NCBI GenBank assembly: GCA_964489065.1
Contig: CAZAXH010000004.1
Span: forward strand, 150,304-214,303
DNA from: an uncultured Planctomycetales bacterium
GTDB lineage: Bacteria; Omnitrophota; Gorgyraeia; Zapsychrales; JANLHA01
DNA: 64,000 nt
Direction of reading: 5' to 3'
The translations under genes and the position numbers were made by a program. The stretch's first letter is position 1. Each line of letters starts with the position of its first letter. The notes below the pieces were generated by a model. It was not told the DNA's origin. It did no database searches and saw only the letters and a program-made list of their open reading frames with translations. This document shows positions 33,495-46,985 of the stretch, piece after piece.

Positions 33495-33890
33495 TTGAAA
33501 AGCTTTCGGGTTGTTTTATTTATCGGCATTATTGAAATTCTGATTGGCGGGGGGACACTCCTGGGAACGGTGTGGGCCGTGTTGCTGGGATCCAGCACCA
33601 AACCAAACAACGTTCTGTTCTTTGTTATTACGGCCGCTTTAACATCGTTTTCCATCGGCGTCGGCATTCTTCGGTTCAAAAAGCTGGCTTACCGGGCGTT
33701 GCTTTACTTCGCATCCGTGGTGCTCTTAAGCAAATTGCTGATTTTCTTGGGGATCATACATCTTAACGGCGCCCTGGAAACCGTGGTGCCGTCCCCGGTT
33801 AAAAACGGCATGTCCGTCTTCTATCACGGATTTGTCATTTATTCCCTGCTACAGAACGACATCAAAAAGATCTTTCACATTTGGCCGTAA
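33495..33890 (+). CDS. small membrane protein (131 aa, 4 TM) between two tRNA genes
   Basis: Clean ORF with hydrophobic helices. No family recognised. Confidence 0.5.
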   Translation: MKSFRVVLFIGIIEILIGGGTLLGTVWAVLLGSSTKPNNVLFFVITAALTSFSIGVGILRFKKLAYRALLYFASVVLLSKLLIFLGIIHLNGALETVVPSPVKNGMSVFYHGFVIYSLLQNDIKKIFHIWP

Positions 33891-33908: not shown

Positions 33909-33992
33909 GCTGGAGTGGCGGAATTGGCATACGCGCTGGTCTCAAAAACCAGTGAGGGCAACCTCATGAGGGTTCAACTCCCTCCTCCAGCA
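33909..33992 (+). tRNA. tRNA-Leu (anticodon CAA), type II with long variable arm, no encoded CCA
   Basis: Acceptor GCTGGAG/CTCCAGC, 3-bp D stem with 11-nt D loop, anticodon stem CTGGT/ACCAG with loop CT-CAA-AA, variable hairpin GTGAGG-gcaa-CCTCAT, T arm GAGGG-TTCAACT-CCCTC. Confidence 0.8.
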
Positions 33993-34073
33993 CTTAATTT
34001 TATATCCCCTCAACGACAATCTATTTCTTAATCTCCCCTACCGGGCCATTTTTGATTAAAACGGCCGCGCTTA

Positions 34074-34102
34074 TTGACAGAACCCGAATATTTAGGTATA
34101 TT
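34074..34102 (+). promoter_or_regulatory. sigma70-type promoter of the giant gene
   Basis: TTGACA, 17 nt, TATATT, about 95 nt upstream of the ATG at 34201. Confidence 0.5.
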
Positions 34103-34200
34103 TATTATAGCAATACTCACCCGTCCCTGTCTTACGCTTGGTGTCTTTTCATCAAACGCATTCCTTTTTTACATTTATTTTCAACTGATGAAAATTCTAT

Positions 34201-37200
34201 ATGACTATCTTTCATAAAAACAGGCCATTAGTCCGCAGGTGTTTTACGCTCAATCTGGCGCTTATTTTTTTCCTGACATCCCTGGGGGGTGTTTGTCCGG
34301 TTTCTGCACAGGAACTGCTTAAGACCAGCGTCGCGTTGCCCTCCCCGGGCACGATGGTTCTTCCCACCTCAGAATACACCCCGATGACCATCAAAGGCAT
34401 CACGATCTATCCGGACGACCCTTTTAAATTTGATTTCATCATGAACACCGGGAATTCCGGGCTGGAGGGCGAAGCGTTCAAGACTGAATCACGGCTTTTA
34501 ATCTCGTATTTTCTGGCGTCTTTAACGACCCCGGAAGAGGACATGTGGGTCAATTTGTCTCCAGAGGAGAAAAACCGGGTCATCCCGGAAAATCTCGGCT
34601 CCACCGGGTTGGGAGTCGACATGCTGGCCCAGGATTACCTTTTAAAACAATTGACGGCGTCGATGATCTATCCTGAAAATGACCTGGGCCGGGATTTCTG
34701 GGCAAGGATTTATAAAAAAGTCTATGCCCTCTACGGGCACATAAACGTCCCGATTAACACCTTTAATAAGGTGTGGATACTCCCGGATCAGGCGGAAGTC
34801 TATGAAAAAGGTGAAAACGCGTTTATCGTCACGCAGCATCTGAAAGTATTACTGGAAGAGGACTATAAAGTCTTTAAAAGCCATCTTGAGAACAAACAGC
34901 TGGGCATGGAGAACATCCGGGAAGAAGACGCGGTGGTCCTGCAGGACACCACCTCCGATATTGTCCGGGAGGTGCTTATCCCTGAAATAGAAAAAGAAGT
35001 CAACCACGGGAAAAATTTCGCGAGACTCCGGCAAATTTTCAGCGCCATGATCCTGGCCACCTGGTATAAAAAAACCCTGAAAGATTCGCTTCTGGGGCAG
35101 GTCTATGTTGATCAGGCGAAAACAAAAGGCGTGGATGTCGAGGATAAAGAGCTTAAACAAAGAATCTATAATCAATATATTGAAGCGTTCAAAAAAGGCG
35201 TCTTCAATTATATTAAGGAAGATTACGATCAGGTCGAGCGCAAAAGCGTTCCCAGGAAATATTTCTCCGGCGGTATTGACGTGCGTTCCAGCGCCATCAC
35301 GGAGAAAAATTTATCTGTGTTGTCCGGGCCGATTCAACAGCAGCCCCCTCGTGTCCGAGAGGCCTTTACGTCGCCTTTGGGCGAAAATCAGAAAGTGGCT
35401 GTCGGCCTAGTCCTGGCCGGGGCTGACCAGGATTTGTTAAACGCCTGGTTAGCAGAAAACGCCTCGTCCCCTATTGTCGAAGCCGTGGACACGACCCCGC
35501 CGGCTGGCGGATATGTCACGGCCGATCTGAACGCGCCTTTAGAAGTGGACGTGCGCATTCGGATTCAAAAGACGCCCGTGCCGTTGGATATCAATAATTT
35601 GATTGTCACGCTTCATACCGAACTGTTTACCGAAAAGGAAAAAAATTTTATAAGGCCGAACGAAGGAACCATCCCCTGGCGGGACATCGTGGTGCCTCCC
35701 GAGAAAATTACCCCGGCGACAGACAGCGCTGGCCGGATTATTCCCAACGTTTTTAACGCCAAGGTGGACATTGTCCCCACCCGGACCGGAGCATACGCGT
35801 TTAAAGTCAATGCCCGGACACGTCAGCAGGATCAGCCTGTTTGGGTGCAGGGAGAAAACACAACCGTCCAGGTGGACCTTCTGCCCACATGGCTTGACAA
35901 GAATCAGACGCACCCGATGTACGTTTTCCAGGATGATGTAAAGCTGCGGAACTTTCCTGCGAATTGGACGGGGCTTAATGCTTACCTTAAGCAGACCGCC
36001 GAAGAGACCGGGAAAAATTTCTTTATGATCTCGCCGTTTTTCCCGACCCAGGCGGAGAGCCCGTTTGCCCCGGTATCGGTCTACGCGCTCTCTCCGCGTT
36101 TGATCGATTGGCAGGCGGTGGAAGACCGGGGCGAGCATCCTTTTGAAAAATTCCGCGATTTCCGACACAATGCCTCGCAAGCCCGCCGGGAAGCGTTCGA
36201 GCGGTTCCGGCGCGGCAATCTCCCGATTCAGCAATACGCTGATTTGCTCCGGGAAAGGATCCAAAACCGCCGGGATGTGACTGTCTACGGGGTGAATTAT
36301 TCAGATTTCGCGTATCTCAATTCAGAAGAAATTTCGGAATATTTAATTTATGAACAGTTTGTCAACCTGGAACAGCTCTACGCCCTTTTAAAATACCAGC
36401 GGGAACAGGGGAATCATGTGGTCGGGGACCTGCCCTTTTTCCGATCTATCGTGGGAGTCGAAACCCGGTATGAACCGAATAATTTCGCCCATGACGGAGA
36501 CAACATAGATAACCCGGGTTTTATGGGGAATAAAAAGGTGCATGACCTGGCGGCCTGGGATGAAGTGGCGATCGACCAGCGCGTGCAGAACGGCGAGAAA
36601 GACCCGCGGATTCTCCCGTTCGAATATTGGAATAATCTTTTCCATAAGGTGTTCCTGGACCGCCGCACCCGGATTCACGGCTGGAGGATTGACGCTTTTC
36701 ATATGTACGGCCGGGGGTCATCCAAAGACAATGCCGCCAGGCTGATTTGGGGCACCTCCCTGTGGGAGGAATTCGCCCGTTATTTTCAAGCCCATGATTT
36801 GTTCCTCATGGCCGAACAGCTCGGCGGGGACGCCCATGCGTATTATCATTTTCAACGGCTGGGTCTCTTACAGAACGCCTTTATCCTGGACCTGAAGGCG
36901 AAAAAGCTGGACGCGTTTCTGTCCGACCTCGCCTGGATTTCCAGAGGACTGGCGGTCACCGTTGCCGACACGCATGACAGCGCCCGCTGGGCGGAAGAAT
37001 ATTTCCGTATGTTTGAAGAAGTCACGGGGCTCGCGATGACGAGGCCGGATGACCGGGCCGTCCAGGAAAAAATATTGAACTTGGCTGGGCCAATTTTCCT
37101 GGGACTTTTAATGCTCGGCCCCAAGTTGGAAACCGCCCTGCTCAGCCTTGGGGAACACGCGACCCAGGCTCCCATCAAAAGGGAGTTCCGGGATGAGAAG

Positions 37201-40200
37201 GGTGAATCGGTCATTGGGTCGGCCTGGGGCACTGCGGCGATGGGGCGGGTCGATTTGTCGGCCTGGGTCAAACGGTTCACCCGGATCAGGGAGGAAAATC
37301 CGGCAGTGAGCCGTTCGGAAATGGTGGTGCTTTCTAACAACAGCCCTCAAAACATGGTATCGGTAGCCAAAGTGTTTCAGGATAACAAATTATTATTCAT
37401 CGGCAATTTTTATAAAGAGGCCAAAACCATGGAATTGCCTGTTTTTCAATTTCCGGGATTCGGGATCGCCGCAGAGGATATAGCGGTGTTCCGCAACGCC
37501 CTTGCCCCCGAGGAGGAAATCCGGGTGGAACAAGGGAAGCTGACCTATCCCCTCGCTCCCGGGCAGGTGGCCGTGCTGAAACTGGAATCTGTGCGGAAAC
37601 CGGGGCCCACGTCCTCCCCCGTGACGCAAAGATGGAACTGGGCGGAGAATAAGAATAAAGCTGTGATGCTGTTGCCGGGTGAAACGTTGTTGATTGAGAA
37701 TGAGGAGTTTTTTGAACTGATTATTACAGAACATAATTTTGGGGGGACACAGACACTTTTTTGTGAAGCGGACCATAAATACATCGGCGATAAGTCGCAT
37801 CTTTATTATAAGCTTGAATTGACGGACTTAGACCCTGGAGATTATTCCATAATGTTTCGTTGGCCCGGGAAGCAGACCAACGGCGGCTGGGAAGGAGAGT
37901 CGGGGGGACCCCGGTCTTATCATTTTAAGGTTTTACCTGACATAACCCGTTTGAAATCTCCATATGAAAAATTGTCCATCCGAGTAACGTCCGGAGATCT
38001 AGGCCTCTCACCTGTATGGAACCCATTTCTAAAGTATCCGCATTATACAGTTACTTTATCCAACGGGATAGGAACGATTTTTAGAATACCGATCCGACCT
38101 CTCGTCCGGGAACAAAAAGACGGCGCTATCCGGGTGGGGGGCTATGTGAGCAAATATGACGGGTTCCTGGTCAACCTCAAGACAAGAGGCACTCCAGATG
38201 AAAATAAGCGGGCCATCTACCGGGGTGCAGTTGAGGATGTAAATGTAAAATTTCGTGATGGGAGTGAGCAGTTGTATTCCCTGGATATAAGAAGCTTTGA
38301 CCATTTTGAACGTTATCCGTCTCCGACCTGGACTTATGTTTTGAAAAAAGATTATTCCGGAATTGTGGTCATAGAAAAAACCGCGGTTGTCAAACAGGGA
38401 GAGAACACATTTGCCTTTCAGTACCGCGTTGTTTCAGCGACACCGGAAGTTGATGCCGTGGAGTTGTTCGTGCGGCCGGATATGGACCAGCGATCCCACC
38501 ATGAAACTACGACAATTACGCCAGAAGGCCTAGGCTGGTGGCAGGGAAAACAGCGGGTTGTATCCGACCAGAATGGAAACTCTATCGGGTTTGAATTGGG
38601 CGTCATTAATGAGGCTTGGAAACAGTGGTATCCGGGTTTTGAGGGGGTTCGGATGACAATCACAAAGGGCCGTTATCAAGAGTCCCCTGAGCGCCATTAT
38701 AGCGACAATCCGCTGGAAGAGGAGCGAGGACAACATAATTACAGCGACAGTTACAGCCCAGGATTCTTTTCCGCCATATTAAAAGCCGGGGAAACCACCA
38801 GCCTGGTTTTATCCAGCCGCGATATTAACACTCCCGACCATGTTTATGGGGAACAGGATGTTACGACTTTGATTCAAGAGAATACAACTCTTCTGCAAGA
38901 CCGTTTGGCTTTGATTAAGAATAAAGCGACAAGAGATGATGTCTTTGTGCAAAAACTGGTCCTGGCCCTCTGGGAGTTTATTGTTCAAAGGGACGAGTTT
39001 TATACTGTTATTGCCGGTCACCCCTGGTTTTCTGATTGGGGCCGGGACACCTTCATTGCTTTTGACGGAGTTTTGGCTGCAGGCATGTATGATGTGGCCC
39101 GGGGGTTGATTCTGGCTTTCGGGAGGTTTGAAGGTAAAGACGGAAACAAGGGGATGTTGCCCAATATTATCACAGGCGAGGAAGCAGGGAATTGGGATAC
39201 GGTGGATGCGCCGTTATTGTATGTGCTGGCTGTCCGGAATTATATTCAAAGCACGGGGGATGCCGGCATTTTGGAAACAAAAACCGGGGGCCGGACTGTG
39301 AGGGCGATTATTGAGTCCATCACGGAAGGGTATCAGCAGGGCACAAAAAACGGGATTCGCATGGACGCTGAGTCGGGGTTGATTTATTCCCCTGCCCATT
39401 ATACCTGGATGGATACGAATTATCCCGCGGCCACACCCCGGGAAGGCTACACGGTTGAGAACAACGCCCGATGGTTTGATGTTTTAAGTTGGCTTGCCGA
39501 GCTCGCCAGAAGGGACAATGATTTACCCAAGGCCGAGACTTATGCCCGGTTGGCGGCACGGGTCAAAGAAAGTTTTAATACGTATTTTTGGAATGAAAAC
39601 AGCGGCTATCTGGCGGATACAGTTTTCGCCGGCCAAGGGGTCAGCGCGAAAGACGGACGACCGGATCTTTCAATCCGGCCTAATCAGTTGATTGCGGTGC
39701 TTTCTGTCTATGGACTCTTATCTTCGGAACGCCAGCGAAAGATCGTTGAACTCGTTGAGAAAAAACTTCTGGTCCCAACGGGATTACGCACGCTGTCGGA
39801 AGACACCCAGTCCAGCGCGGAATTTCCTTATCGCGGCACGTATGAAGGCAGTGACGATTATGGCCGAAAACAAGCGTATCATAACGGCACGGTATGGCCG
39901 CACCTTTTCGGAGATTGGGCGCTGGCGTATGTTATGGCGAATAATTTTTCACAGCAAAGCAAAGAACATGTTTTACCGTATTTCACCACTCTGGATGAAC
40001 ATCTCAAGCAAGCCGGGGTAGGGAGTGTTTCGGAAGTGCGTGACGGGAATTATCCCCATCGGCCGAGAGGCACGGATGCCCAGGCCTGGAGTGTCGCGCT
40101 GCCCTTGGCCGCCTATACGAAAATACAGTATGGCGAACAAGACGACCAGGCTTCCTCTCCGATAGGAGTCTCGGGGCCAGGCGTCGCAGAATCGATAGTC

Positions 40201-40422
40201 CCGCAAGCCTCCCTTCAGACTTCTTCCGACCTTTCGCAGGATCTGGGGGGCATTAATCTTAACGCGGACCTGATGAACCTTAAAATCCAGCGTGACGAAC
40301 ACGGCCTCCCTCTCCCCCTGCCGCAACAACCTTTAATGGATATACAGGTGGAAGGCTTTTCCCCTGTCATCTTTTACGTCGTCCCCGTAGATATCCTGCT
40401 TTTGACCGGCCTGAAATCTTAA
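34201..40422 (+). CDS. 2073-aa secreted multidomain alpha-glucan-active enzyme: signal peptide, ~550-aa unknown N-domain, GH77 4-alpha-glucanotransferase domain, beta-rich middle region, archaeal-type glycogen-debranching (GDE_N/GDE_C, amylo-alpha-1,6-glucosidase) module, then a Pro-rich linker and hydrophobic C-terminal tail
   Basis: GH77 motifs: FFMISPFFPTQAESPFAPVSVYALSPRLID (compare LPLGPTGYGDSPYQSFSAFAGNPYLID), VVGDLPFF, WRIDAFHMYGRG (compare RIDHFRGF), TVADTHDS. GDE_C motifs: AGHPWFSDWGRDTFIAFDG, NGTVWPHLFGDWA. N-terminal signal MTIFHKNRPLVRRCFTLNLALIFFLTSLGGVCPVSA. C-terminus ...PLPLPQQPLMDIQVEGFSPVIFYVVPVDILLLTGLKS. Confidence 0.8.
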   Translation: MTIFHKNRPLVRRCFTLNLALIFFLTSLGGVCPVSAQELLKTSVALPSPGTMVLPTSEYTPMTIKGITIYPDDPFKFDFIMNTGNSGLEGEAFKTESRLLISYFLASLTTPEEDMWVNLSPEEKNRVIPENLGSTGLGVDMLAQDYLLKQLTASMIYPENDLGRDFWARIYKKVYALYGHINVPINTFNKVWILPDQAEVYEKGENAFIVTQHLKVLLEEDYKVFKSHLENKQLGMENIREEDAVVLQDTTSDIVREVLIPEIEKEVNHGKNFARLRQIFSAMILATWYKKTLKDSLLGQVYVDQAKTKGVDVEDKELKQRIYNQYIEAFKKGVFNYIKEDYDQVERKSVPRKYFSGGIDVRSSAITEKNLSVLSGPIQQQPPRVREAFTSPLGENQKVAVGLVLAGADQDLLNAWLAENASSPIVEAVDTTPPAGGYVTADLNAPLEVDVRIRIQKTPVPLDINNLIVTLHTELFTEKEKNFIRPNEGTIPWRDIVVPPEKITPATDSAGRIIPNVFNAKVDIVPTRTGAYAFKVNARTRQQDQPVWVQGENTTVQVDLLPTWLDKNQTHPMYVFQDDVKLRNFPANWTGLNAYLKQTAEETGKNFFMISPFFPTQAESPFAPVSVYALSPRLIDWQAVEDRGEHPFEKFRDFRHNASQARREAFERFRRGNLPIQQYADLLRERIQNRRDVTVYGVNYSDFAYLNSEEISEYLIYEQFVNLEQLYALLKYQREQGNHVVGDLPFFRSIVGVETRYEPNNFAHDGDNIDNPGFMGNKKVHDLAAWDEVAIDQRVQNGEKDPRILPFEYWNNLFHKVFLDRRTRIHGWRIDAFHMYGRGSSKDNAARLIWGTSLWEEFARYFQAHDLFLMAEQLGGDAHAYYHFQRLGLLQNAFILDLKAKKLDAFLSDLAWISRGLAVTVADTHDSARWAEEYFRMFEEVTGLAMTRPDDRAVQEKILNLAGPIFLGLLMLGPKLETALLSLGEHATQAPIKREFRDEKGESVIGSAWGTAAMGRVDLSAWVKRFTRIREENPAVSRSEMVVLSNNSPQNMVSVAKVFQDNKLLFIGNFYKEAKTMELPVFQFPGFGIAAEDIAVFRNALAPEEEIRVEQGKLTYPLAPGQVAVLKLESVRKPGPTSSPVTQRWNWAENKNKAVMLLPGETLLIENEEFFELIITEHNFGGTQTLFCEADHKYIGDKSHLYYKLELTDLDPGDYSIMFRWPGKQTNGGWEGESGGPRSYHFKVLPDITRLKSPYEKLSIRVTSGDLGLSPVWNPFLKYPHYTVTLSNGIGTIFRIPIRPLVREQKDGAIRVGGYVSKYDGFLVNLKTRGTPDENKRAIYRGAVEDVNVKFRDGSEQLYSLDIRSFDHFERYPSPTWTYVLKKDYSGIVVIEKTAVVKQGENTFAFQYRVVSATPEVDAVELFVRPDMDQRSHHETTTITPEGLGWWQGKQRVVSDQNGNSIGFELGVINEAWKQWYPGFEGVRMTITKGRYQESPERHYSDNPLEEERGQHNYSDSYSPGFFSAILKAGETTSLVLSSRDINTPDHVYGEQDVTTLIQENTTLLQDRLALIKNKATRDDVFVQKLVLALWEFIVQRDEFYTVIAGHPWFSDWGRDTFIAFDGVLAAGMYDVARGLILAFGRFEGKDGNKGMLPNIITGEEAGNWDTVDAPLLYVLAVRNYIQSTGDAGILETKTGGRTVRAIIESITEGYQQGTKNGIRMDAESGLIYSPAHYTWMDTNYPAATPREGYTVENNARWFDVLSWLAELARRDNDLPKAETYARLAARVKESFNTYFWNENSGYLADTVFAGQGVSAKDGRPDLSIRPNQLIAVLSVYGLLSSERQRKIVELVEKKLLVPTGLRTLSEDTQSSAEFPYRGTYEGSDDYGRKQAYHNGTVWPHLFGDWALAYVMANNFSQQSKEHVLPYFTTLDEHLKQAGVGSVSEVRDGNYPHRPRGTDAQAWSVALPLAAYTKIQYGEQDDQASSPIGVSGPGVAESIVPQASLQTSSDLSQDLGGINLNADLMNLKIQRDEHGLPLPLPQQPLMDIQVEGFSPVIFYVVPVDILLLTGLKS

Positions 40423-40629
40423 ATACACCGTCTTGGGACTTCCCCCCGGCCCTTTTCAGGACGGATTCCGTTCCTGTATATCCCCAAAAATCCTTTAAAA
40501 AAGTTAACATAAAAAACCGGAATTTTAGGAAATTTTTCTATATCTATTTTTCTTTAATCTCCCCCCACACACAAACTGGCTAATTTTTCGGTTCCGGGCC
40601 TCATGATTTTATGATAACTTAAAGGAGTC

Positions 40630-42198
40630 ATGTCCAACGATCCCTTAAGCCGCGCCGATGAAAATAACCGGGCCACGCGCCCTTTAAACCTATCCGCGAT
40701 GCGATTCCTTAAAGCAGCCCTGATCCCAGCGCTTCTTTTCATCATCAATTTTCTGCTGCGCCTCTCTTTAATTAGCAAAGGCCCCTATCATCTGGACTGT
40801 GTCACCATGGCCTACCAGGCCGGGCTCACGGTCAAGACCGGCACGCTCCATTACCTCCACAGCCACGGGTTCCCCTTGAGCGCCATACTCGCCGCCTTCA
40901 GCGCCTGGCTGGCGCAGGCCTTCGGTGCCGACGCCGTGGCCGCGGTGAACGGAATGAGCGTGTTCGTCAGCGCGCTTTCTGTCCCGCTTTTCTTTATCGT
41001 CACCCAGAAACTTTCCAGGAAAACCACGGCGGTCATAAGCAGCCTCTTGTTTTCGGTCAGCCCAATTTTCTTAAGCCTGTCGGTGTTCGGCAACACGCAC
41101 GTCTTAAGCCTGTTCCTCTGCTTGATGAGCGTATTCTTTATCCTTAAACTCAAAGCGCGTCCCTGTTCCAGCACCCTGCTGACGGCAGGGATTACGCTGG
41201 GATTATGGGGCGCGGCCCGCGTGCAGGACTTTCTCACCCTAGTGCCCGCGGTTCTGCTCCTCTTAAGGTTTCCCGTTATCCCCTCCGACGCCCCAAGGGG
41301 AAAACCGCTGACCACGCGGGCCCAAACGGCCGTGACAGCCTTGGCCATTGCGTTCATCATCACCGGATTATTCTACCTCCCGCTGGTCATGGCGACTCCG
41401 GGAAAAAGCCTGCGCCCGTTCTGGGATTTTGAAATCGCCAGCCGACTGAACATCCTGTCCCTCCGCTATCTTCTCCTCTCCCTGATTTATGGAGCCGATA
41501 ATTTTTTGCCGCTGGGCCTCGTGCTTATTGCCCTGGGCCATGTTATTATATATAGAATCAATAAATCTTTAGGCACGTTTTTAACGGCCTGGTACGCAGT
41601 TCCGCTTGTGGTGTTCAGCCGCCTGGATATTGTTATGCCCCGGTTTTTCCTGTGCGCCCTGCCGGCGCTCTACATCCTGGCGGGAACGGTGCTGGCCGCG
41701 CTATACCGACAGCGCAAAGTCTATTTTAAAACGATGACTCTCCTGATTATCCTTCTATGGGGCTGGCTGTGTTTTTACCGGATTTATCCCGTCCTTGACT
41801 TCCGGCACCGGCACGCGCTGTTGCCCGATTATATCCGCTGGATCAAGGACCAGGCCGGGCCGGGCGCCCTGATGATTCCCGGAGACGAAGGTGATTTTCT
41901 GCGATATTATAACGGGCCCGGCCTCCTGCGCCTCCCGCTCAAAATTCGGACCTCGTATTCCGAGGCGGAGCTTAATTCTTTCAAACAAAAAATCGACCGG
42001 GCGCTCGCCGGCGGCCGGGACGTCTATATCAATTACATCACCATGTCCGCCCACAACCCGCGGCGCCAGTTCACGGATTTTCTCCAAAAAAACTACTCGC
42101 TGATCTGCCTCGGAGAAAAACTTTATGAAGACTGGCACCGAGGTGCGATGTACCAGTTCATTTACCCGGTGGCTGTTTACAGGATCGTCAACGAATGA
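40630..42198 (+). CDS. polytopic membrane glycosyltransferase, GT-C fold (ArnT/PMT/DUF2723-like), paralog 1
   Basis: AAGGAG SD. About 11 TM helices followed by a ~120-aa C-terminal soluble domain. Conserved blocks shared with the downstream paralog: RLSLISKGPYHLDC, RHRHALLP, EDWHRG. Confidence 0.6.
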   Translation: MSNDPLSRADENNRATRPLNLSAMRFLKAALIPALLFIINFLLRLSLISKGPYHLDCVTMAYQAGLTVKTGTLHYLHSHGFPLSAILAAFSAWLAQAFGADAVAAVNGMSVFVSALSVPLFFIVTQKLSRKTTAVISSLLFSVSPIFLSLSVFGNTHVLSLFLCLMSVFFILKLKARPCSSTLLTAGITLGLWGAARVQDFLTLVPAVLLLLRFPVIPSDAPRGKPLTTRAQTAVTALAIAFIITGLFYLPLVMATPGKSLRPFWDFEIASRLNILSLRYLLLSLIYGADNFLPLGLVLIALGHVIIYRINKSLGTFLTAWYAVPLVVFSRLDIVMPRFFLCALPALYILAGTVLAALYRQRKVYFKTMTLLIILLWGWLCFYRIYPVLDFRHRHALLPDYIRWIKDQAGPGALMIPGDEGDFLRYYNGPGLLRLPLKIRTSYSEAELNSFKQKIDRALAGGRDVYINYITMSAHNPRRQFTDFLQKNYSLICLGEKLYEDWHRGAMYQFIYPVAVYRIVNE

Positions 42199-43739
42199 AA
42201 AACCGCCTTCCCTTTCATCCCGCTCTGATCCCTCTTTTATTCGGAGGGCTAAACCTGCTGTTACGGCTATCGGTAATCAGCCGGGGGCCATTTAACGGCG
42301 ACTGCCTCTCCCTGGCGATCCAGGCCGAGAAAACCCTGCAATTATTGCAACCCCAATACGTTTTCGGCACAGGCTATCCCCTGACGGTTCTCTTGGGTGC
42401 CTTGTTTTTCAGGCTGACACGGCTTTACGGCAACACCGATCCTGTCCTGGCCGTTAACCTTATGAGTGTGGTCTTAAGTTCGCTAACGGTGGCCATCCAT
42501 TACCTCGTCGTGCAAAAACTCCTGGACCGAACCGCGGCGATAGCCAGTGCGCTCTTATTGTCCGTGTTCCCCATATTTTTAGGGATATCCACCTACGGCA
42601 TGAGCCACGTCCCCAGCCTGTTGTTCCTGCATCTGGGCCTTTTATCGCTCCTGCAATTTAAGGAAACCCGCTCCGCCGCGAACTTCGCCTTAAGCGCCTT
42701 CTGGCTGGGATGCATGGGCGCCTCCCGTATTCAGGAATTCGCCCTCATGACCGTGCCCGTTTCGATCCTGCTGGGAACGCTTGTGTCCGGCGGAGGCGGC
42801 CCGCGGCCGGGCGCCAGAACAGCCTACCGCCGGTTCCTAAACAAATTCTTTTTCCTTTGGCTCGGCGCTGGTGCGACCGCGCTCCTTTTTCATCTTCCGC
42901 TTTTTCTTTTGTCCGCGCAAAACGGGTATTTCGTCCAGTTGAAACGGTACTGGGCCGCCAGCACGGCGCCGAACTTCTTAGGGTTCCTGTCGCCGGCTTT
43001 AGGCGACAGTTTTCAGGTCACATTCTTCAGCCTGACCCCCTTCGGCGCCATAGCCGCCGCGCTGGGGCTCCTCCTGCTCTTAAAAAACAAACGGTTCACA
43101 GCCCTGTTCCTGGCCGCGTGGTTCCTCTGGCCGCTCCTGTTCCTCGGCAACCTCGCCATGACAACACCGCGGTTCATCCTTATCGCGCTGATCCCGCTCT
43201 TGATTTTTTCCGGCGCGTTCTTTTCTCATCTTAAAAATTTCCCCAACACCCGTTTCCGCCTGCTCGCCAGCTTCGCTTTCGGCCTTATTTTTGTCACCAT
43301 GTTCGTCAACATCCACCCGATCCTGCGGTTCCGCCACCGGCATGAATTGCTGCCGGGTTTCGCCCGTTTCGTCCAGAAAAGCACCGAGCCCGGCGCGAAA
43401 ATCATCTGCGGGGACGAATTCCCGTTCATCATTTATTACGGCCGCCGGGACATGCTCCGCCGGCCTAACGACCCTTTCCGCATCACACCCACGGACATGG
43501 AAGTGTTCCGGGCCCGGCTGGACGAACTGCTTGCCGACGGGGTGCCTGTTTATATTACCTCCTCGGGCCTGTTCAGCTACGACCCGGGCAAACGCTTTTC
43601 CGGATTCATCCAATCTCATTACCGGCTGGAATACCAGGGCGAAACCCTTTCGGAAGACTGGCACCAGGGCGTCACCCGGCTGCGCGTCGGCGTGGAAAAA
43701 CTCTACCGGATCCAAAAGCTCCCGCGCGCGGAGCCCTAA
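42195..43739 (+). CDS. polytopic membrane glycosyltransferase, GT-C fold, paralog 2 (tandem duplicate)
   Basis: Start overlaps the upstream stop as ATGA. Same architecture and motifs: RLSVISRGPFNGDC, RFRHRHELLP, EDWHQG. Confidence 0.6.
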   Translation: MKNRLPFHPALIPLLFGGLNLLLRLSVISRGPFNGDCLSLAIQAEKTLQLLQPQYVFGTGYPLTVLLGALFFRLTRLYGNTDPVLAVNLMSVVLSSLTVAIHYLVVQKLLDRTAAIASALLLSVFPIFLGISTYGMSHVPSLLFLHLGLLSLLQFKETRSAANFALSAFWLGCMGASRIQEFALMTVPVSILLGTLVSGGGGPRPGARTAYRRFLNKFFFLWLGAGATALLFHLPLFLLSAQNGYFVQLKRYWAASTAPNFLGFLSPALGDSFQVTFFSLTPFGAIAAALGLLLLLKNKRFTALFLAAWFLWPLLFLGNLAMTTPRFILIALIPLLIFSGAFFSHLKNFPNTRFRLLASFAFGLIFVTMFVNIHPILRFRHRHELLPGFARFVQKSTEPGAKIICGDEFPFIIYYGRRDMLRRPNDPFRITPTDMEVFRARLDELLADGVPVYITSSGLFSYDPGKRFSGFIQSHYRLEYQGETLSEDWHQGVTRLRVGVEKLYRIQKLPRAEP

Positions 43740-43793
43740 GCCCCGCGGGGCCGAATCTGTTGCCCGTTTTCTGATTCAATGCTACACTTATAC

Positions 43794-44384
43794 ATGATGA
43801 AAAAACCCCTGTTAATCATAACACTCCTGTTTCTCCTGCCCGCAACCTTTCTCCTTATTCCCTCATCGGCCGCGGCGGGAGAGAACACCGCATCCGTGCC
43901 CCTACAGTTTATCTCTCTGAATGACGGCACGCTGATCCGGGGACGGCTGACTTCCGTCGAGAATGGCGTTTATATCATTCAAACCGAGCACTTGGGCGAA
44001 ATCCGGGTGAACCCGGAGGATATTCAAAGCATCTCTTCCGGAAATTTCCAGCGCAAGGAAAAGGACGACACTGCCGGCTCCCGGCAGAACGCGGCCAGGA
44101 CCGTTCCCCTTTCCCCGGGGACGCAGGTCCTGAATTCCCCGGACGCACTGCAAACGGTCCAGCAGGCCCTGATGAGCGATCCGCAAATCCTATCCCTTAT
44201 CCAGGACCTCATGCAGGACCCGGAGGTGGTGAAAATCATCGAGGACAGCAACCTCATGAACGACCTCTCGACACTGGACCCGGCCACCATACAGAAAAAC
44301 CAGGACTTCCAGCGCCTGCTCCAGCATCCGAAAATCCAACAGATCATCAAAACCTTCACCCAAAAAAATATCCAACTGCCTTAA
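43794..44384 (+). CDS. secreted protein with N-terminal beta region and C-terminal helical DP/Q-rich repeats
   Basis: Signal peptide MMKKPLLIITLLFLLPATFLLIPSSAAA. Repeats SDPQILSLIQDLMQDPEVVKIIED and DPATIQKNQDFQRLLQHPKIQQIIKTF. Confidence 0.55.
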   Translation: MMKKPLLIITLLFLLPATFLLIPSSAAAGENTASVPLQFISLNDGTLIRGRLTSVENGVYIIQTEHLGEIRVNPEDIQSISSGNFQRKEKDDTAGSRQNAARTVPLSPGTQVLNSPDALQTVQQALMSDPQILSLIQDLMQDPEVVKIIEDSNLMNDLSTLDPATIQKNQDFQRLLQHPKIQQIIKTFTQKNIQLP

Positions 44385-44454
44385 CGCGGGGGATTAAACT
44401 AGATATCTACGGGCTCTCCACCCGTAGGATTACGAGGGTCTACTAAAAGAGGAC

Positions 44455-45159
44455 TTAATGGATGTTGGAGTGGCGGTTATACCGCAGGCGTATTGTATCG
44501 ACGACAACCCGGGGACCGTGCCGCAGGATGGAAAAGGTTCCCGGCCCTTTGTCGCAATAAGAACCCGGGATCTCCAGGATGGAACAGCGGCGGGCAGAGA
44601 AAGCGTTGATGATTTCCATGTGAATATCAAAGCCGTCCGCACGAAGGGGAACCCGCGTTAAAACCTCGCGGGACATGGCGACGGTCCCGGATCCGATGTC
44701 AAAAACCGGGACATGAAAAAGTATCCGGCAAAGCCAGAAATACATCCGGCTGACCGTCCTGCGCAGAAACGGGACGCGGCCCTGCCCCGCGGCAAGATAG
44801 CGGGACACGACAACCATCTCGTATTTTTTGCTTAGCGCGACCAGATCTTTCAAAACAGCGGTGCCAAAAGGGAGATCGACGTCGCAATACACCACGGTCT
44901 GGCCCTGCGCCTCTTCGAACAGCCGCCTTAACGTAAACCCCAGGCCGCGGTTTTTTTCATTGAACGCACAGCGCACGCCGGAACGCTGATCCGCAAGACG
45001 GCGCAGGACATCGGCACTGCCGTCAGAGCTCCCATCGTCCCGAAGTAAAATTTCATATTCCAAACCCTGTCCGTCGCAAAAGACGGCAAGCTCTTCCACC
45101 GCAGGGATGATAAGATCCCTGGAATTATAAACAGGGATAACGACAGACAACTCGGGCAT
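44455..45159 (-). CDS. GT2-family polyprenyl-phosphate glycosyltransferase (Dpm1/GtrB/ArnC-like)
   Basis: LSVVIPVYNSRD...DDGSSDGS...VVYCDVDLPF GT-A motifs. 234 aa with no C-terminal TM pair. Confidence 0.7.
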   Translation of the reverse strand: MPELSVVIPVYNSRDLIIPAVEELAVFCDGQGLEYEILLRDDGSSDGSADVLRRLADQRSGVRCAFNEKNRGLGFTLRRLFEEAQGQTVVYCDVDLPFGTAVLKDLVALSKKYEMVVVSRYLAAGQGRVPFLRRTVSRMYFWLCRILFHVPVFDIGSGTVAMSREVLTRVPLRADGFDIHMEIINAFSARRCSILEIPGSYCDKGPGTFSILRHGPRVVVDTIRLRYNRHSNIH

Positions 45160-46985
45160 TAAAAAACCCTCGGGGTTAACGCGTCCCGGTCCGAATCAGG
45201 CGGAGACTGCAAAACGGATTCGACCTGCTGAAGCAGCATGCCCGCCTCCAGCACGCGGCCCTGCTGTTGAAAAAACCAAATAGATTGATTAAGATGGCTG
45301 CGGACCTCGTCTTCTTTCCCGAACTGGGCGTACACGCCCGCTAGGTTAAAATACGCTTCCGCGAAAGCGGGATTCAAAGCGATGGCTCTCCGGTAAGCGG
45401 CGATCGCCTGCTCCGGAAGCCCTTTTGCCAGATACACCGGAGCCACGGCGAAATAAAAATGCGCGTCGTCCGGCTTCAAAGCGATCGCGGCTTGAAACGC
45501 GTTCAGCGCGAGGTCCCATTCCCCTTCCTGGGCGTACACGATCCCGAGATTGCTCTGCATCACGGCGCTCTCGGGGTTCATCTGGACCGTTCCTTCATAC
45601 AGCCGCCGGTTGTCTTTCCAGTCCGTATTCCGCAACCAGGTCCGTCCTCCGTAAAACACAACGATCAGGGCGGCGCACGCCGTGACCGCGCGTTTCATCC
45701 ATGTCCGGTCGACGGAGGAACCCGCCTCCAGCCAGGAGACAATCCCCGTCGCTAATAAAAAGCAAAAACCCAGGGAGCCGGGATACAAATACCGCTCCGC
45801 GAAATAAACAGAGCTGGGCACGATATTAGCCCCCGGCAACAAGGAAATGAAGAGCCAGCCGGCACAAAATCCAATGAGAGGCCGGCGTCTTCTGGAGACA
45901 AACACCCAGAAAGCCAGCAAACCCAACACGGCCAGGGCCTTCAGCGTGTACCCATCGGTCCAGGACTGCGCCAGGACAGCGGCCCGGTTAAAATCGCTCG
46001 GGTCAAACGCGAAAATACCGGGCGCGATCACGGGATTGTGGGACAATTGAAAAGGAAACACAAGCACCGCCAGGTATTGCGCCCAGGCCTTGACAATGAC
46101 CGCCATGGTCAGGCCGAAACTCCCGGCGACATAACCGCCGCGGTTGATCATGCCCAGCACGCCCCACTTGCATAAAATATAAACCGCGACAATGACAAAA
46201 AAAGGCCAGGAGAGCGGCACAACCTCCCGCCATGTCCGGCGGGGCCGCGTAAAAAACTTATCGTAAAACACAATCAATAACGGCATTGAAATCGCCAGCT
46301 CATGGGTAAACACCGCCAGAACCGCGAAAAAAACCGCCCAGCCCCGGGCCCGCGCCTCTGAGTCCGCAGGGGGTTGCTCTCGGCCCGCCGGACTTATATC
46401 CTCATCCGCGGCTCCCTCTTCCCAGAAAATCGGAACCTGGCCTTCCCTCCGATCAGCCCGCAGATGAAAATAAAAACCCGCGAACAAAAACACGATCCCG
46501 AGCGTGTCTACGCTGGCCGTCATAAACGTGATGGCTTCGACATGAACCGGGTGCAATGCGAACAAAAGCGCCGTCCAAAAAGAAACATCGCTGCGCCGCG
46601 ACAATTCATAAACGATTTGATACACGAGCCAGATCCCGGCGGCGTGAATAAGGAGCGAAACAAGGTGATAACCGAAAACCGCCTCTCCCCACAATTGATA
46701 ATTGACCGCGTGCCAAAAGGTTTTAAGCGGGGAATAGACTCCGGGCTGTCCGTCCGGCGGGATATATCCCACGAAAAACCGGGGGACATTGCGCAGGTCA
46801 CGGATCAGCGGCCAATTGGTGATAAAATCGAAATCGTCCAGGACAAACTGATTGCCAAAAATATTGCTGAAGGCCAAAAACGTTAAGACAAAAACAAAAC
46901 CCAAACGCGCCGCCTTTTGCTGAAACAGCTGGCTCCACCCCCGCGCGGGAGCGGTTTCTTTGTTTTTACCCCTGGCCTTTCTCAT
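45159..46985 (-). CDS. GT-C membrane glycosyltransferase with C-terminal TPR repeats (TMTC/PMT_2/DUF1736-like protein O-mannosyltransferase family)
   Basis: N-terminal FVLDDFDFITNWPLIRD motif, multiple TM helices, and at least 4 C-terminal TPR units. ATG at 46985 overlaps the rlmN stop (ATGA) and has a GGAGGGAGG SD. Its stop overlaps the GT2 start as TAATG. Confidence 0.7.
   Translation of the reverse strand: MRKARGKNKETAPARGWSQLFQQKAARLGFVFVLTFLAFSNIFGNQFVLDDFDFITNWPLIRDLRNVPRFFVGYIPPDGQPGVYSPLKTFWHAVNYQLWGEAVFGYHLVSLLIHAAGIWLVYQIVYELSRRSDVSFWTALLFALHPVHVEAITFMTASVDTLGIVFLFAGFYFHLRADRREGQVPIFWEEGAADEDISPAGREQPPADSEARARGWAVFFAVLAVFTHELAISMPLLIVFYDKFFTRPRRTWREVVPLSWPFFVIVAVYILCKWGVLGMINRGGYVAGSFGLTMAVIVKAWAQYLAVLVFPFQLSHNPVIAPGIFAFDPSDFNRAAVLAQSWTDGYTLKALAVLGLLAFWVFVSRRRRPLIGFCAGWLFISLLPGANIVPSSVYFAERYLYPGSLGFCFLLATGIVSWLEAGSSVDRTWMKRAVTACAALIVVFYGGRTWLRNTDWKDNRRLYEGTVQMNPESAVMQSNLGIVYAQEGEWDLALNAFQAAIALKPDDAHFYFAVAPVYLAKGLPEQAIAAYRRAIALNPAFAEAYFNLAGVYAQFGKEDEVRSHLNQSIWFFQQQGRVLEAGMLLQQVESVLQSPPDSDRDALTPRVF

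What the first reader, a model, noticed from the sequence alone, without database searches (positions are those of the whole stretch)
34074..46985. Candidate periplasmic lipid-linked glycosylation / alpha-glucan remodelling system built around a giant secreted GH77-GDE fusion protein
One 13 kb block combines seven parts:
- a 2073-aa secreted enzyme fusing a 4-alpha-glucanotransferase (GH77) with an amylo-1,6-glucosidase (GDE) module;
- two tandem paralogous GT-C-fold membrane glycosyltransferases (start-stop ATGA overlap);
- a secreted helical-repeat protein;
- convergently, a GT2 polyprenyl-phosphate sugar synthase;
- a TPR-bearing GT-C of the TMTC/PMT family;
- rlmN.

GT2 plus GT-C is the canonical logic for making a lipid-linked sugar in the cytoplasm and transferring it to a periplasmic acceptor, as in ArnC/ArnT, Ppm1/PMT and Dpm1/TMTC. 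Having three GT-Cs next to a secreted transglycosylase/debranching enzyme suggests either a protein O-glycosylation system whose substrates include the giant protein, or synthesis and remodelling of a periplasmic or cell-surface alpha-glucan. I do not know of this combination being described as a unit.
Basis: partly seen in the sequence, partly recalled or inferred. Interest (0 to 1): 0.85.

Follow-up and report, generated by a model that had tools for sequence, protein, structure and literature searches.

The report
Glycosylation gene module beside inserted debranching-enzyme gene

Summary

The giant gene is not part of that unit. Relatives with 79-82% identical GT-C proteins are collinear on both sides, but carry an 822-bp Fic/RHH toxin-antitoxin pair where the window has 6,526 bp (34044-40569). 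More distant relatives have nothing there. Orthologues of the giant elsewhere (74% and 55% identity) have no GT neighbours. rlmN is only a neighbour.

The giant has four parts:
- a signal peptide plus a conserved ~400-aa "N-cap"
- a divergent GH77-like module with an intact Asp-Glu-Asp triad
- a GH133/GDE module
- a conserved ~58-aa "C-cap"

The modules are separated by SSP[IVL] motifs. The N-cap defines 8,355 clusters at 50% identity. The best 80 genome matches are all Omnitrophota MAGs, some labelled Planctomycetales. It has no Pfam, NCBIfam or PDB match. Other members carry glycolysis and glycogen enzymes as cargo.

The parts
33909..33993 (+). tRNA-Leu(CAA). It anchors a variable insertion slot. 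The same tRNA directly precedes the GT-C genes in relatives.
   Evidence: ARAGORN and Rfam. The same tRNA lies 16-61 bp upstream of the GT-C genes in L006 and L008, and upstream of the Fic/RHH pair in L114 and L116.
34044..40569 (.). Lineage-specific 6,526-bp cassette carrying the giant gene. Not part of the conserved module.
   Evidence: blastn: window 32002-34043 matches L114 5516-7558 (84%), and window 40570-48500 matches L114 8381-16294 (78-80%). Between these, L114 has 822 bp with Fic + RHH_3. No flanking repeats.
34074..34102 (+). Sigma-70-like promoter candidate for the giant gene (TTGACA-17-TATATT, 11 of 12 matches).
   Evidence: Consensus scan only. It lies inside the inserted cassette.
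34201..40422 (+). Giant ORF, 2073 aa: N-cap | GH77-like | GDE | C-cap.
34201..34308 (+). Sec-type signal-peptide-like segment (aa 1-36). It has a basic n-region, a hydrophobic core and the motif VSA|QE.
   Evidence: Read from the sequence. Ala36 is invariant in 27 of 27 family members. Export itself is inferred, not shown.
34309..35463 (+). N-cap domain (to about aa 421). This is the family-defining domain, of unknown fold.
35464..35475 (+). SSPI linker motif 1 (aa 422-425).
   Evidence: SSP[IVLM] occurs 205 times against 9.5 expected in 120 family members. In the window it is found only in the giant.
35881..37608 (+). Divergent GH77-like (clan GH-H) 4-alpha-glucanotransferase module (aa 561-1136).
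   Evidence: Pfam GH77 at 33.4 bits. The orthologue profile hits Thermus amylomaltase 1fp8/1cwy at E=4e-8. Invariant R269-D271-H274, E312 and H365-D366 in the motifs RIDAFH, AEQLG and THDS.
37612..37623 (+). SSPV linker motif 2 (aa 1138-1141).
38290..40098 (+). Amylo-alpha-1,6-glucosidase module (GDE_N + GDE_C, GH133-type; aa 1364-1966).
   Evidence: GDE_C E=1.8e-84 and GDE_N E=8e-16. TIGR01561 at 199 bits.
40153..40164 (+). SSPI linker motif 3 (aa 1985-1988).
40246..40419 (+). C-cap (aa 2016-2073): GGINLN...LKIQRDEHGLPLPLPQQP...GFSPVIFYVVPV...
   Evidence: Present in 118 of 120 family members. Consensus GGIDLNpalLdLQIKRDgnGvPLPl.QQPi..M.I.GF.PVIInv.Pv. No Pfam hit at E<=10.
40630..42198 (+). 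GT-C paralogue 1 (522 aa).
   Evidence: 32% identical to paralogue 2 and a member of alignment A1. The first-loop Asp is conserved (GPYHLDC). PMT_2/TMEM260 hits are sub-threshold.
42195..43739 (+). GT-C paralogue 2 (514 aa).
   Evidence: PMT_2 at 38.2 bits, above the 26.1 cut-off. The family profile hits yeast Pmt1 6p25 at E=8e-7 and AglB at 6e-3. D36 is invariant in the closer alignment.
43779..44384 (+). Small signal-peptide protein with an STI1/DP-like helical repeat. Conserved partner of the GT-C genes.
   Evidence: Homologues lie directly downstream of the GT-C in L003, L006 (47%), L008/L009 (33%), L092, L096 and L103. STI1-HOP_DP E=2.6e-4.
44455..45159 (-). GT2 polyprenyl-phosphate sugar synthase candidate (234 aa, no C-terminal TM helices).
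   Evidence: Pfam Glycos_transf_2. Best PDB hits are Pyrococcus DPMS 5mlz at E=6e-17, ArnC at 4e-12 and GtrB at 1e-5. Orthologues lie convergent to the GT-C in L006, L098 and L102.
45159..46985 (-). TPR-bearing GT-C (608 aa from the ATG at 46985; the mechanical ORF runs to a GTG at 47012).

Best explanation
Two unrelated genetic entities lie side by side in a Candidatus Omnitrophota chromosome.

(1) A conserved envelope glycosylation module.
- A soluble DPM1/ArnC-type GT2 is inferred to load a monosaccharide onto polyprenyl phosphate at the cytoplasmic face.
- After flipping, three GT-C enzymes are inferred to transfer that sugar to an extracytoplasmic acceptor. They are two PMT_2-type paralogues and one TMTC/PMT-like enzyme with a C-terminal TPR domain.
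- The acceptor is most likely Ser/Thr of exported proteins. The reasons are the closest fold match to a protein O-mannosyltransferase, the TPR substrate-binding domain, and a co-conserved STI1-like periplasmic helper.

(2) A 6.5 kb cassette with its own promoter, dropped into a variable slot just after tRNA-Leu(CAA). It encodes one member of a very large protein family that, in the best genome matches, is confined to Omnitrophota. The family layout is: Sec-type signal peptide + conserved N-cap + variable enzyme cargo + conserved C-cap, with SSP[IVL] motifs at module borders.
- In this member the cargo is a clan GH-H / GH77-like 4-alpha-glucanotransferase plus a GH133 amylo-1,6-glucosidase.
- That is the same two activities the eukaryotic glycogen debranching enzyme uses for indirect debranching. 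The protein should therefore trim and remove alpha-1,6 branches of an alpha-glucan, in whatever compartment the N-cap/C-cap family is sent to.

Shown here: gene content, homologies, folds, catalytic motifs, and synteny including the indel.
Inferred: the donor lipid and sugar, the acceptor, export of the giant, and its activity.
For: Organism and family:
- Searches give Omnitrophota as the organism, 8,355 N-cap clusters, and the N-cap always at the N-terminus.
- The C-cap is present in 118 of 120 members.
- The cargo Pfams of paralogues are phosphoglucomutase, UDP-glucose pyrophosphorylase, PGI, PGK, enolase, GAPDH, aldolase, glycogen synthase, branching enzyme, response regulators and HEAT repeats.
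- The SSP[IVLM] motif is about 21-fold enriched and sits at module borders.

Cargo activities:
- GDE_C scores 284 bits and GDE_N 58.6 bits.
- The GH77 profile hit is E=4e-8 with an invariant Asp/Glu/Asp triad.

Insertion:
- DNA collinearity shows breakpoints at 34043/34044 and 40569/40570.
- Fic/RHH occupies the slot in L114-L116. The slot is empty in L006 and L008.
- Giant orthologues in L001 and L002 have no GT genes within 10 kb.

GT module:
- The GT2 evidence is.
- Across 25 metagenome loci plus other loci, the GT-C gene recurs with a GT2 (two arrangements and two GT2 subfamilies), with the TPR-GT-C, or with the STI1-like gene.
Against: - No experiment stands behind any activity or localisation.
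- The giant and the GT-C pair are co-directional, 207 bp apart, with no clear terminator between them. Co-transcription and a lineage-specific functional link therefore cannot be excluded.
- GT-C genes lie next to other N-cap genes in L070, L083, L044 and L014.
- The module is not rigid. Many GT-C homologues stand alone or with only one partner.
- Cargo enzymes of the family need ATP, NAD or nucleotide sugars, which sits badly with export to a periplasm.
- The N-cap model has only moderate confidence (pLDDT 65.5), so 'no known fold' is provisional.
Confidence: 0.7

Rival explanations
1. One reading: in this lineage the block works as one system. Either the GT-Cs O-glycosylate the giant (for example at its SSP[IVL] linkers), or the GT-Cs build a periplasmic or surface alpha-glucan that the giant remodels.
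For: - The genes are adjacent and on the same strand, with no obvious terminator between the giant and GT-C 1.
- The arrangement is kept in the 94%-identity lineage.
- A second, independent GT-C pair lies directly upstream of a different N-cap gene in L070. TPR-GT-Cs abut N-cap genes in L083 and L044.
- The SSP motif is Ser-rich and family-specific.
Against: - The giant is an indel in a hotspot that holds a toxin-antitoxin pair in the next relatives.
- Giant orthologues elsewhere lack GT neighbours.
- The L070 neighbour carries unrelated cargo with no glucan enzyme.
- N-cap genes are so numerous that chance adjacency is expected. There are at least 5-6 per MAG among the best 80 hits alone, and they come in tandem arrays. 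GT-C-centred loci show N-cap genes in only 2 of 25 cases.
Confidence: 0.12
2. The GT module modifies a non-protein acceptor with a single lipid-linked sugar, as ArnC/ArnT or GtrB/YfhO-type systems do. Candidates are lipid A/LPS core, peptidoglycan or another envelope glycopolymer.
For: - ArnC is the best NCBIfam hit of the GT2 and its second-best solved relative.
- There is a weak NCBIfam hit to a 'cell surface glycopolymer formation protein'.
- PMT_2 is a broad family that includes ArnT-like enzymes.
Against: - The TPR domain and the STI1-like partner suggest a polypeptide acceptor.
- No Ara4N, Kdo or LPS genes lie nearby.
Confidence: 0.3
3. The N-cap/C-cap proteins, including the giant, are not exported. 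[quoted passage not shown] The giant would then debranch ordinary cytoplasmic glycogen.
For: - Cargo domains of the family are classic cytoplasmic, nucleotide-dependent enzymes.
- A 2026 preprint on Omnitrophota long proteins discusses inner-membrane-anchored cytoplasmic-domain readings for many of them (10.64898/2026.06.07.730766).
Against: - The segment has the canonical n-h-c layout, with an invariant Ala at the predicted -1 position.
- Basic residues precede the hydrophobic core, which predicts N-in/C-out.
- Canonical short copies of at least PGI exist in related genomes. The fused copies are therefore extra, as expected for a second location.
Confidence: 0.3

Closest known systems
Actinobacterial Ppm1/Pmt and eukaryotic Dpm1/PMT protein O-mannosylation
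   Same: A DPM-type GT2 is paired with a PMT-like GT-C that has an acidic motif in the first extracytoplasmic loop. The best solved relatives are DPMS and Pmt1/Pmt4.
   Different: No MIR domains. Sequence similarity is confined to the first ~230 residues. There are three GT-Cs, one with TPRs, plus an STI1-like partner. The sugar is unknown.
Streptococcus mutans Pgf system (PgfS GT2 + PgfM1/PgfM2 GT-C + PgfE; PMC5856776)
   Same: One GT2 works with two GT-C membrane proteins to O-glycosylate Ser/Thr-rich regions of exported proteins. The GT2 has a weak PgfS hit.
   Different: The PgfS score of 40 bits is far below the 500-bit cut-off, so they are not orthologues. There is no epimerase here. The host is Gram-negative-type. 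There is an extra TPR-GT-C.
Metazoan TMTC1-4 (GT-C with C-terminal TPRs)
   Same: The architecture is a GT-C membrane domain followed by TPRs, with a 'DD' motif in loop 1.
   Different: No DUF1736/PF08409 hit at E<=10. There are only about 4-5 TPRs. Bacterial homologues are uncharacterised.
ArnC/ArnT lipid A modification
   Different: No Ara4N biosynthesis genes. All scores are far below the equivalog cut-offs.
Eukaryotic glycogen debranching enzyme (AGL/Gdb1) and archaeal-type GDE
   Same: One polypeptide combines a clan GH-H 4-alpha-glucanotransferase with a GH133 amylo-1,6-glucosidase.
   Different: The transferase is GH77-like rather than GH13-type. TIGR01531 scores 69 bits against a 1399-bit cut-off. 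The protein is flanked by the N-cap, the C-cap and a signal peptide.
Omnitrophota long or giant 'multi-enzyme' proteins (10.1101/2023.11.21.568195; 10.64898/2026.06.07.730766)
   Same: Same phylum. Sugar-metabolism Pfams (starch synthase, PGM) are fused into long proteins that carry signal peptides or TM segments.
   Different: Those papers treat proteins of 10 kaa or more. I found no description in them of the N-cap, the C-cap or the SSP linker.
Cargo proteins of dedicated secretion systems (for example T9SS C-terminal-domain cargo, polymorphic effectors)
   Same: Conserved terminal module(s) flank highly variable enzymatic cargo. There are many paralogues per genome, often in tandem.
   Different: No sequence match to any known sorting domain in Pfam or NCBIfam. 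This resemblance is one of logic only.

Membership tests
GT-C superfamily (514- and 522-aa paralogues) | Polytopic N-terminal membrane domain homologous to PMT/STT3/ArnT | tested here: met
   PMT_2 at 38.2 bits against a 26.1 cut-off for the 514-aa protein. The 522-aa protein is sub-threshold (20.6) but 32% identical and in the same family. The family profile hits Pmt1 at E=8e-7 and AglB at 6e-3.
GT-C superfamily (514- and 522-aa paralogues) | Conserved acidic residue in the first extracytoplasmic loop | tested here: met
   D36 is at least 90% conserved in 34 sequences and invariant in the closer set of 11. It aligns with D50/D51 of the TPR-GT-C family.
GT39 (PMT sensu stricto) | Luminal MIR domains and full-length PMT (PF02366) match | tested here: not met
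   No MIR or PF02366 hit for either paralogue. Only distant homologues carry PF02366. NCBI's name 'glycosyltransferase family 39 protein' is therefore generic.
GT-C superfamily (TPR protein) | GT-C fold of the membrane domain | tested here: met
TMTC-like (GT-C + TPR) | C-terminal TPR array after the membrane domain, and a DD motif in loop 1 | tested here: met
   TPR families at E down to 1e-16 over aa 454-585. D51 is invariant and D50 at least 90% conserved.
TMTC-like (GT-C + TPR) | DUF1736 (PF08409) loop domain | tested here: not met
   No Pfam family at E<=10 on residues 1-451.
Polyprenyl-phosphate glycosyltransferase (DPM1/GtrB/ArnC-type GT2) | GT-A catalytic domain most similar to Pren-P sugar synthases | tested here: met
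   PDB: DPMS 5mlz at 6e-17, ArnC at 4e-12, GtrB at 1e-5. NCBIfam: ArnC, AglJ, PgfS and PpgS hits, all below their cut-offs.
Polyprenyl-phosphate glycosyltransferase (DPM1/GtrB/ArnC-type GT2) | Donor sugar and lipid acceptor | not testable with these tools
   Needs an enzyme assay. At 234 aa there are no C-terminal TM helices.
GH77 (amylomaltase) | Match to the family model | tested here: inconclusive
   Pfam at 33.4 bits, above the 25 cut-off, but only profile positions 105-224 of 465. The orthologue profile hits Thermus and Aquifex amylomaltases at E=4e-8 over the N-terminal third. The C-terminal part matches GH13 domain C.
GH77 (amylomaltase) | Clan GH-H catalytic Asp (nucleophile), Glu (acid/base) and Asp | tested here: met
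   Invariant D271 (RIDAFH), E312 (AEQLG) and D366 (THDS) in 6 sequences down to 25% identity. The assignment of roles rests on motif position and was not checked on a structure.
GH133 / GDE amylo-1,6-glucosidase | GDE_N + GDE_C domains | tested here: met
   GDE_C at 284 bits covering profile positions 5-363 of 367, and GDE_N at 58.6 bits. TIGR01561 at 199 bits, below its 364 cut-off.
Eukaryote-type glycogen debranching enzyme (TIGR01531) | Full-length equivalog match | tested here: not met
   69 bits against a 1399-bit cut-off. It works like this family but is not a member.
Omnitrophota N-cap/C-cap family (defined here) | N-terminal signal-peptide-like segment + N-cap at residue ~1, C-cap near the C-terminus, and SSP[IVL] linkers | tested here: met
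   N-cap E about 1e-145 to paralogues. C-cap aligned in 118 of 120 members. Three SSP motifs at module borders.
Known C-terminal or N-terminal sorting domains (T9SS CTD, PEP-CTERM and similar) | Match to a curated model | tested here: not met
   No Pfam hit at E<=10 for the C-cap or N-cap. No NCBIfam hit at E<=0.01 for the full protein outside the GDE region.

The most novel reading that the evidence does not exclude
Omnitrophota export, through a dedicated N-cap/C-cap route, a second set of glycogen and glycolysis enzymes, of which this giant debranching enzyme is one. These enzymes would go to an extracytoplasmic compartment, the cell surface or a host cell. The phylum's conserved GT2 + GT-C module would O-glycosylate the family's SSP[IVL] linkers. 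On that reading the adjacency seen here (and in L070, L083 and L044) reflects an enzyme-substrate relationship.
Probability: 0.1. Interest if true: 0.85.

Novelty: new variant of a known kind. Interest (0 to 1): 0.55.

Why it matters
The glycosylation module is a tidy, conserved bacterial example of a Pren-P-sugar synthase working with PMT-like and TMTC-like GT-C enzymes. Bacterial TPR-bearing GT-Cs have no known substrates, so the co-conserved STI1-like partner and the synteny give a starting point for experiments.

The bigger point is the giant. It belongs to a family of more than 8,000 sequence clusters, restricted to one uncultured, possibly host-dependent phylum and absent from Pfam, NCBIfam and the PDB. 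The family places a signal peptide and two conserved caps around enzymes of central carbon metabolism. Finding out where these proteins go and what the caps and SSP linkers do would bear directly on how Omnitrophota feed. It would also bear on what their much-discussed giant proteins are.

Tried and rejected
- Exact look-up of the window's 514-aa protein found nothing.
- The first literature search, with loose terms, was useless.
- MAFFT on 63 full-length giants failed. I used the N-terminal 435 residues instead.
- Pfam at E<=10 gave nothing for the N-cap, the C-cap, residues 430-600 of the giant, or the membrane part of the TPR-GT-C.
- No paralogue of the N-cap or C-cap lies elsewhere in the window.
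- No direct or inverted repeats flank the inserted cassette, so no mobile-element mechanism can be named.
- The broad GT-C alignment had no pattern usable for a metagenome scan. A narrower one worked.
- I considered that the 100-kaa Omnitrophota giants might be tandem arrays of N-cap units. I rejected this because the N-cap occurs once, at residue ~1, in all 150 best hits.
- I considered rlmN as part of the system. I rejected this because it is housekeeping, and a CRISPR-Cas locus takes its place in the closest lineage.
- Enrichment of GT-C genes near N-cap genes is roughly 3-fold on a crude expectation. I judged this not significant.


Full report
**Observation.** The window comes from a Candidatus Omnitrophota genome. 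The giant protein is 100% identical to a protein on an NCBI/Logan contig. Its closest named relatives are Omnitrophota MAG proteins.
- The giant carries GDE_C (284 bits), GDE_N (58.6 bits) and a short, weak GH77 hit (33.4 bits, cut-off 25).
- The 514-aa protein scores PMT_2 above its cut-off. The 522-aa protein scores below it.
- The 234-aa protein is a GT2. The 617-aa ORF shows only TPRs. The last gene is rlmN.
- The ATGA overlap between the two paralogues is real.
- The TPR protein most likely starts at the ATG at 46985. That ATG overlaps the rlmN stop in a second ATGA and is preceded by GGAGG.
- The flanks are housekeeping. On one side lie a biotin operon with birA, tRNA-Ala, a small membrane ORF and tRNA-Leu. 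On the other lie accA, an L,D-transpeptidase and a Mg-chelatase-like ATPase.

**The three membrane proteins are GT-C enzymes.**
- A 34-sequence profile of the 514/522 family hits yeast Pmt1 (E=8e-7) and archaeal AglB. It has a nearly invariant Asp in the first loop.
- The membrane part of the TPR protein has no Pfam hit even at E<=10.
- Its family profile nevertheless aligns to the paralogue family over 423 columns at 97.6% probability, with the 'FVxDD' Asp pair opposite D36.
- It has the TMTC-like layout of a GT-C domain followed by TPRs, but lacks the DUF1736 signature.

**The GT2.** Its best solved relatives are Pyrococcus dolichol-phosphate mannose synthase, ArnC and GtrB. The donor and the acceptor remain inferred.

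**Synteny splits the block in two.**
- Relatives with 94% identical GT-C proteins keep the whole arrangement. They carry a type I-E CRISPR-Cas locus where rlmN sits in the window.
- Relatives with 79-82% identical GT-C proteins (L114-L116) are collinear with the window from the biotin operon to the PAS histidine kinase. The exception is the giant's position, where they have a Fic/RHH_3 toxin-antitoxin pair.
- blastn places the breakpoints at window 34043/34044 and 40569/40570. That is 6,526 bp in the window against 822 bp in L114.
- In a complete 3.36 Mb genome with a 57% identical GT-C (L006), and in L008 (43%), tRNA-Leu is followed within 16-61 bp by the GT-C gene.
- Full-length orthologues of the giant at 74% and 55% identity lie in unrelated neighbourhoods. 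No GT-C or GT2 lies within 10 kb of them.
- The cassette carries a near-consensus sigma-70-type promoter and has no flanking repeats.
- The giant is therefore a lineage-specific insertion into a variable slot. It is not the core of a conserved unit.

**The glycosyltransferase genes do travel together.** I scored 25 metagenome loci, plus the loci fetched earlier, with family HMMs. The GT-C gene recurs in several arrangements:
- The full five-gene set: GT-C, GT-C, STI1-like, convergent GT2, TPR-GT-C (window lineage, L090, L114-116, L006).
- A convergent GT2 + TPR-GT-C pair (L098, L102, and L104, whose contig is cut off before a GT2 could be seen).
- A different GT2 directly upstream (L007, L093, L101).
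- The STI1-like gene alone (L008, L092, L096, L103).
- A tandem pair of GT-C genes (L094, L112, L070).
- Alone.

The closest described systems are Ppm1/Pmt-type protein O-mannosylation and the S. mutans Pgf system, which has one GT2 and two GT-C proteins (PMC5856776). I favour protein O-glycosylation for three reasons: the best fold and profile matches are PMTs, there is a TPR domain, and there is an STI1-like partner. An ArnT-like modification of a glycolipid or glycopolymer remains a serious rival.

**What the giant is.** Its first ~400 residues match thousands of long Omnitrophota proteins at E about 1e-145 and 45-60% identity.
- Of the best 120 hits, 118 also share a ~58-residue C-terminal module: GGIDLN..L.LQIKRDG.GVPLP..QQP...M.I.GF.PVII.V.PV.
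- Between these caps the cargo differs. It includes phosphoglucomutase, UDP-glucose pyrophosphorylase, PGI, PGK, enolase, GAPDH, aldolase, PEP synthase, glycogen synthase, branching enzyme, receiver domains, HEAT repeats, UbiB kinases and M48 peptidases.
- An exhaustive profile search finds 8,355 clusters at 50% identity (6,718 at E<=1e-30). In the 150 best hits listed, the N-cap begins at or near residue 1, almost always as a single matched stretch.
The best 80 are all in Omnitrophota MAGs, some mislabelled Planctomycetales. There are several paralogues per MAG, often in same-strand tandem arrays.
- Neither cap has a Pfam, NCBIfam or PDB sequence match.
- The N-terminus looks like a cleavable Sec signal, with an invariant Ala at -1.
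- The tetrapeptide SSP[IVLM] occurs 205 times in the 120 proteins against 9.5 expected. In the window it occurs only in the giant. There it falls exactly at the N-cap/GH77, GH77/GDE and GDE/C-cap borders.

**Cargo of this member.**
- A profile of the GH77-like region hits Thermus and Aquifex amylomaltases (E=4e-8). It keeps an invariant Arg-x-Asp...His, Glu and His-Asp, the clan GH-H catalytic signature.
- The GDE module is a strong GH133-type match.
- Transferase plus alpha-1,6-glucosidase in one chain is the logic of the eukaryotic debranching enzyme. This protein is not a member of that family (TIGR01531 at 69 vs 1399 bits).

**Is there a link between the two parts?** GT-C genes lie beside other N-cap genes in a few of 79 N-cap-centred loci.
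- A GT-C pair sits upstream of a 2,334-aa N-cap protein with unrelated cargo in L070.
- TPR-GT-Cs abut N-cap genes in L083 and L044, and one lies about 1 kb away in L014.
- Against a crude expectation this is about 3-fold enrichment. But N-cap genes are very numerous, and only 2 of 25 GT-C-centred loci contain one.

I treat the link as unproven. It is the most novel reading not excluded.

**Literature.** Two preprints describe Omnitrophota giant proteins that combine sugar-metabolism domains with signal peptides or TM segments. They debate whether these are extracellular or membrane-anchored (10.1101/2023.11.21.568195; 10.64898/2026.06.07.730766). I found no description of the N-cap, the C-cap or the SSP linker in them or elsewhere in the library.

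**Verdict.** The GT module is a new member of a known kind. The giant is a new variant, a GH77+GH133 debranching enzyme inside a very large protein architecture that I could not find described.

Noticed in passing
window 34044-40569 vs L114 7559-8380: The slot just after tRNA-Leu(CAA) is a variable insertion site. It holds the giant cassette here, a Fic + RHH_3 toxin-antitoxin pair in relatives with 79-82% identical GT-C proteins, and nothing in more distant relatives.
   Followed up: yes
window 33495-33890 (+): A 131-aa hydrophobic ORF is wedged between tRNA-Ala(GGC) and tRNA-Leu(CAA). It is conserved (96% in L003, 76% in L006), so it is probably a real small membrane protein of unknown function.
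   Followed up: partly
L003 15851-21545; L004 15319-16842: In the closest lineage (94% identical GT-C), a type I-E CRISPR-Cas locus (Cas2, Cas1, Cas6e, Cas5, Cas7, Cse2) follows the TPR-GT-C where the window has rlmN-accA.
   Followed up: no
L010-L088 (e.g. L068 243-14507, L076 76-14880): N-cap family genes often form same-strand tandem arrays of 2-4 genes, seen in 26 of 79 loci. Single MAGs contribute 5-6 loci among the best 80 hits.
   Followed up: partly
L008 12105-21563; L009 10206-19664: In one lineage the GT-C + STI1-like pair lies next to a type II secretion / type IV pilus-like cluster (secretin, GspE/F, PilM/N/O, pseudopilin). This raises pilin-like proteins as possible acceptors.
   Followed up: no
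L006 1-177; L008 1-196: A canonical 424-aa PGI sits beside the biotin operon in related genomes. The N-cap-fused glycolytic enzymes are therefore additional copies, not the only ones.
   Followed up: no
window 46982-46985 and 42195-42198: There are two ATGA start/stop overlaps. One is rlmN stop / TPR-GT-C start, and the other is GT-C 1 stop / GT-C 2 start. The rlmN one is conserved in L114-L116, so a housekeeping rRNA methyltransferase is translationally coupled to the glycosyltransferase genes.
   Followed up: partly
L070 2349-3341: An IS-type integrase (rve + HTH) lies directly upstream of the GT-C pair, which in turn precedes an N-cap gene. This locus has also been rearranged.
   Followed up: no
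giant aa 430-560 and 1140-1360 (window 35488-35880, 37618-38289): Two stretches of the giant have no family match. By position they may be carbohydrate-binding or N-terminal GDE beta-sandwich domains.
   Followed up: no
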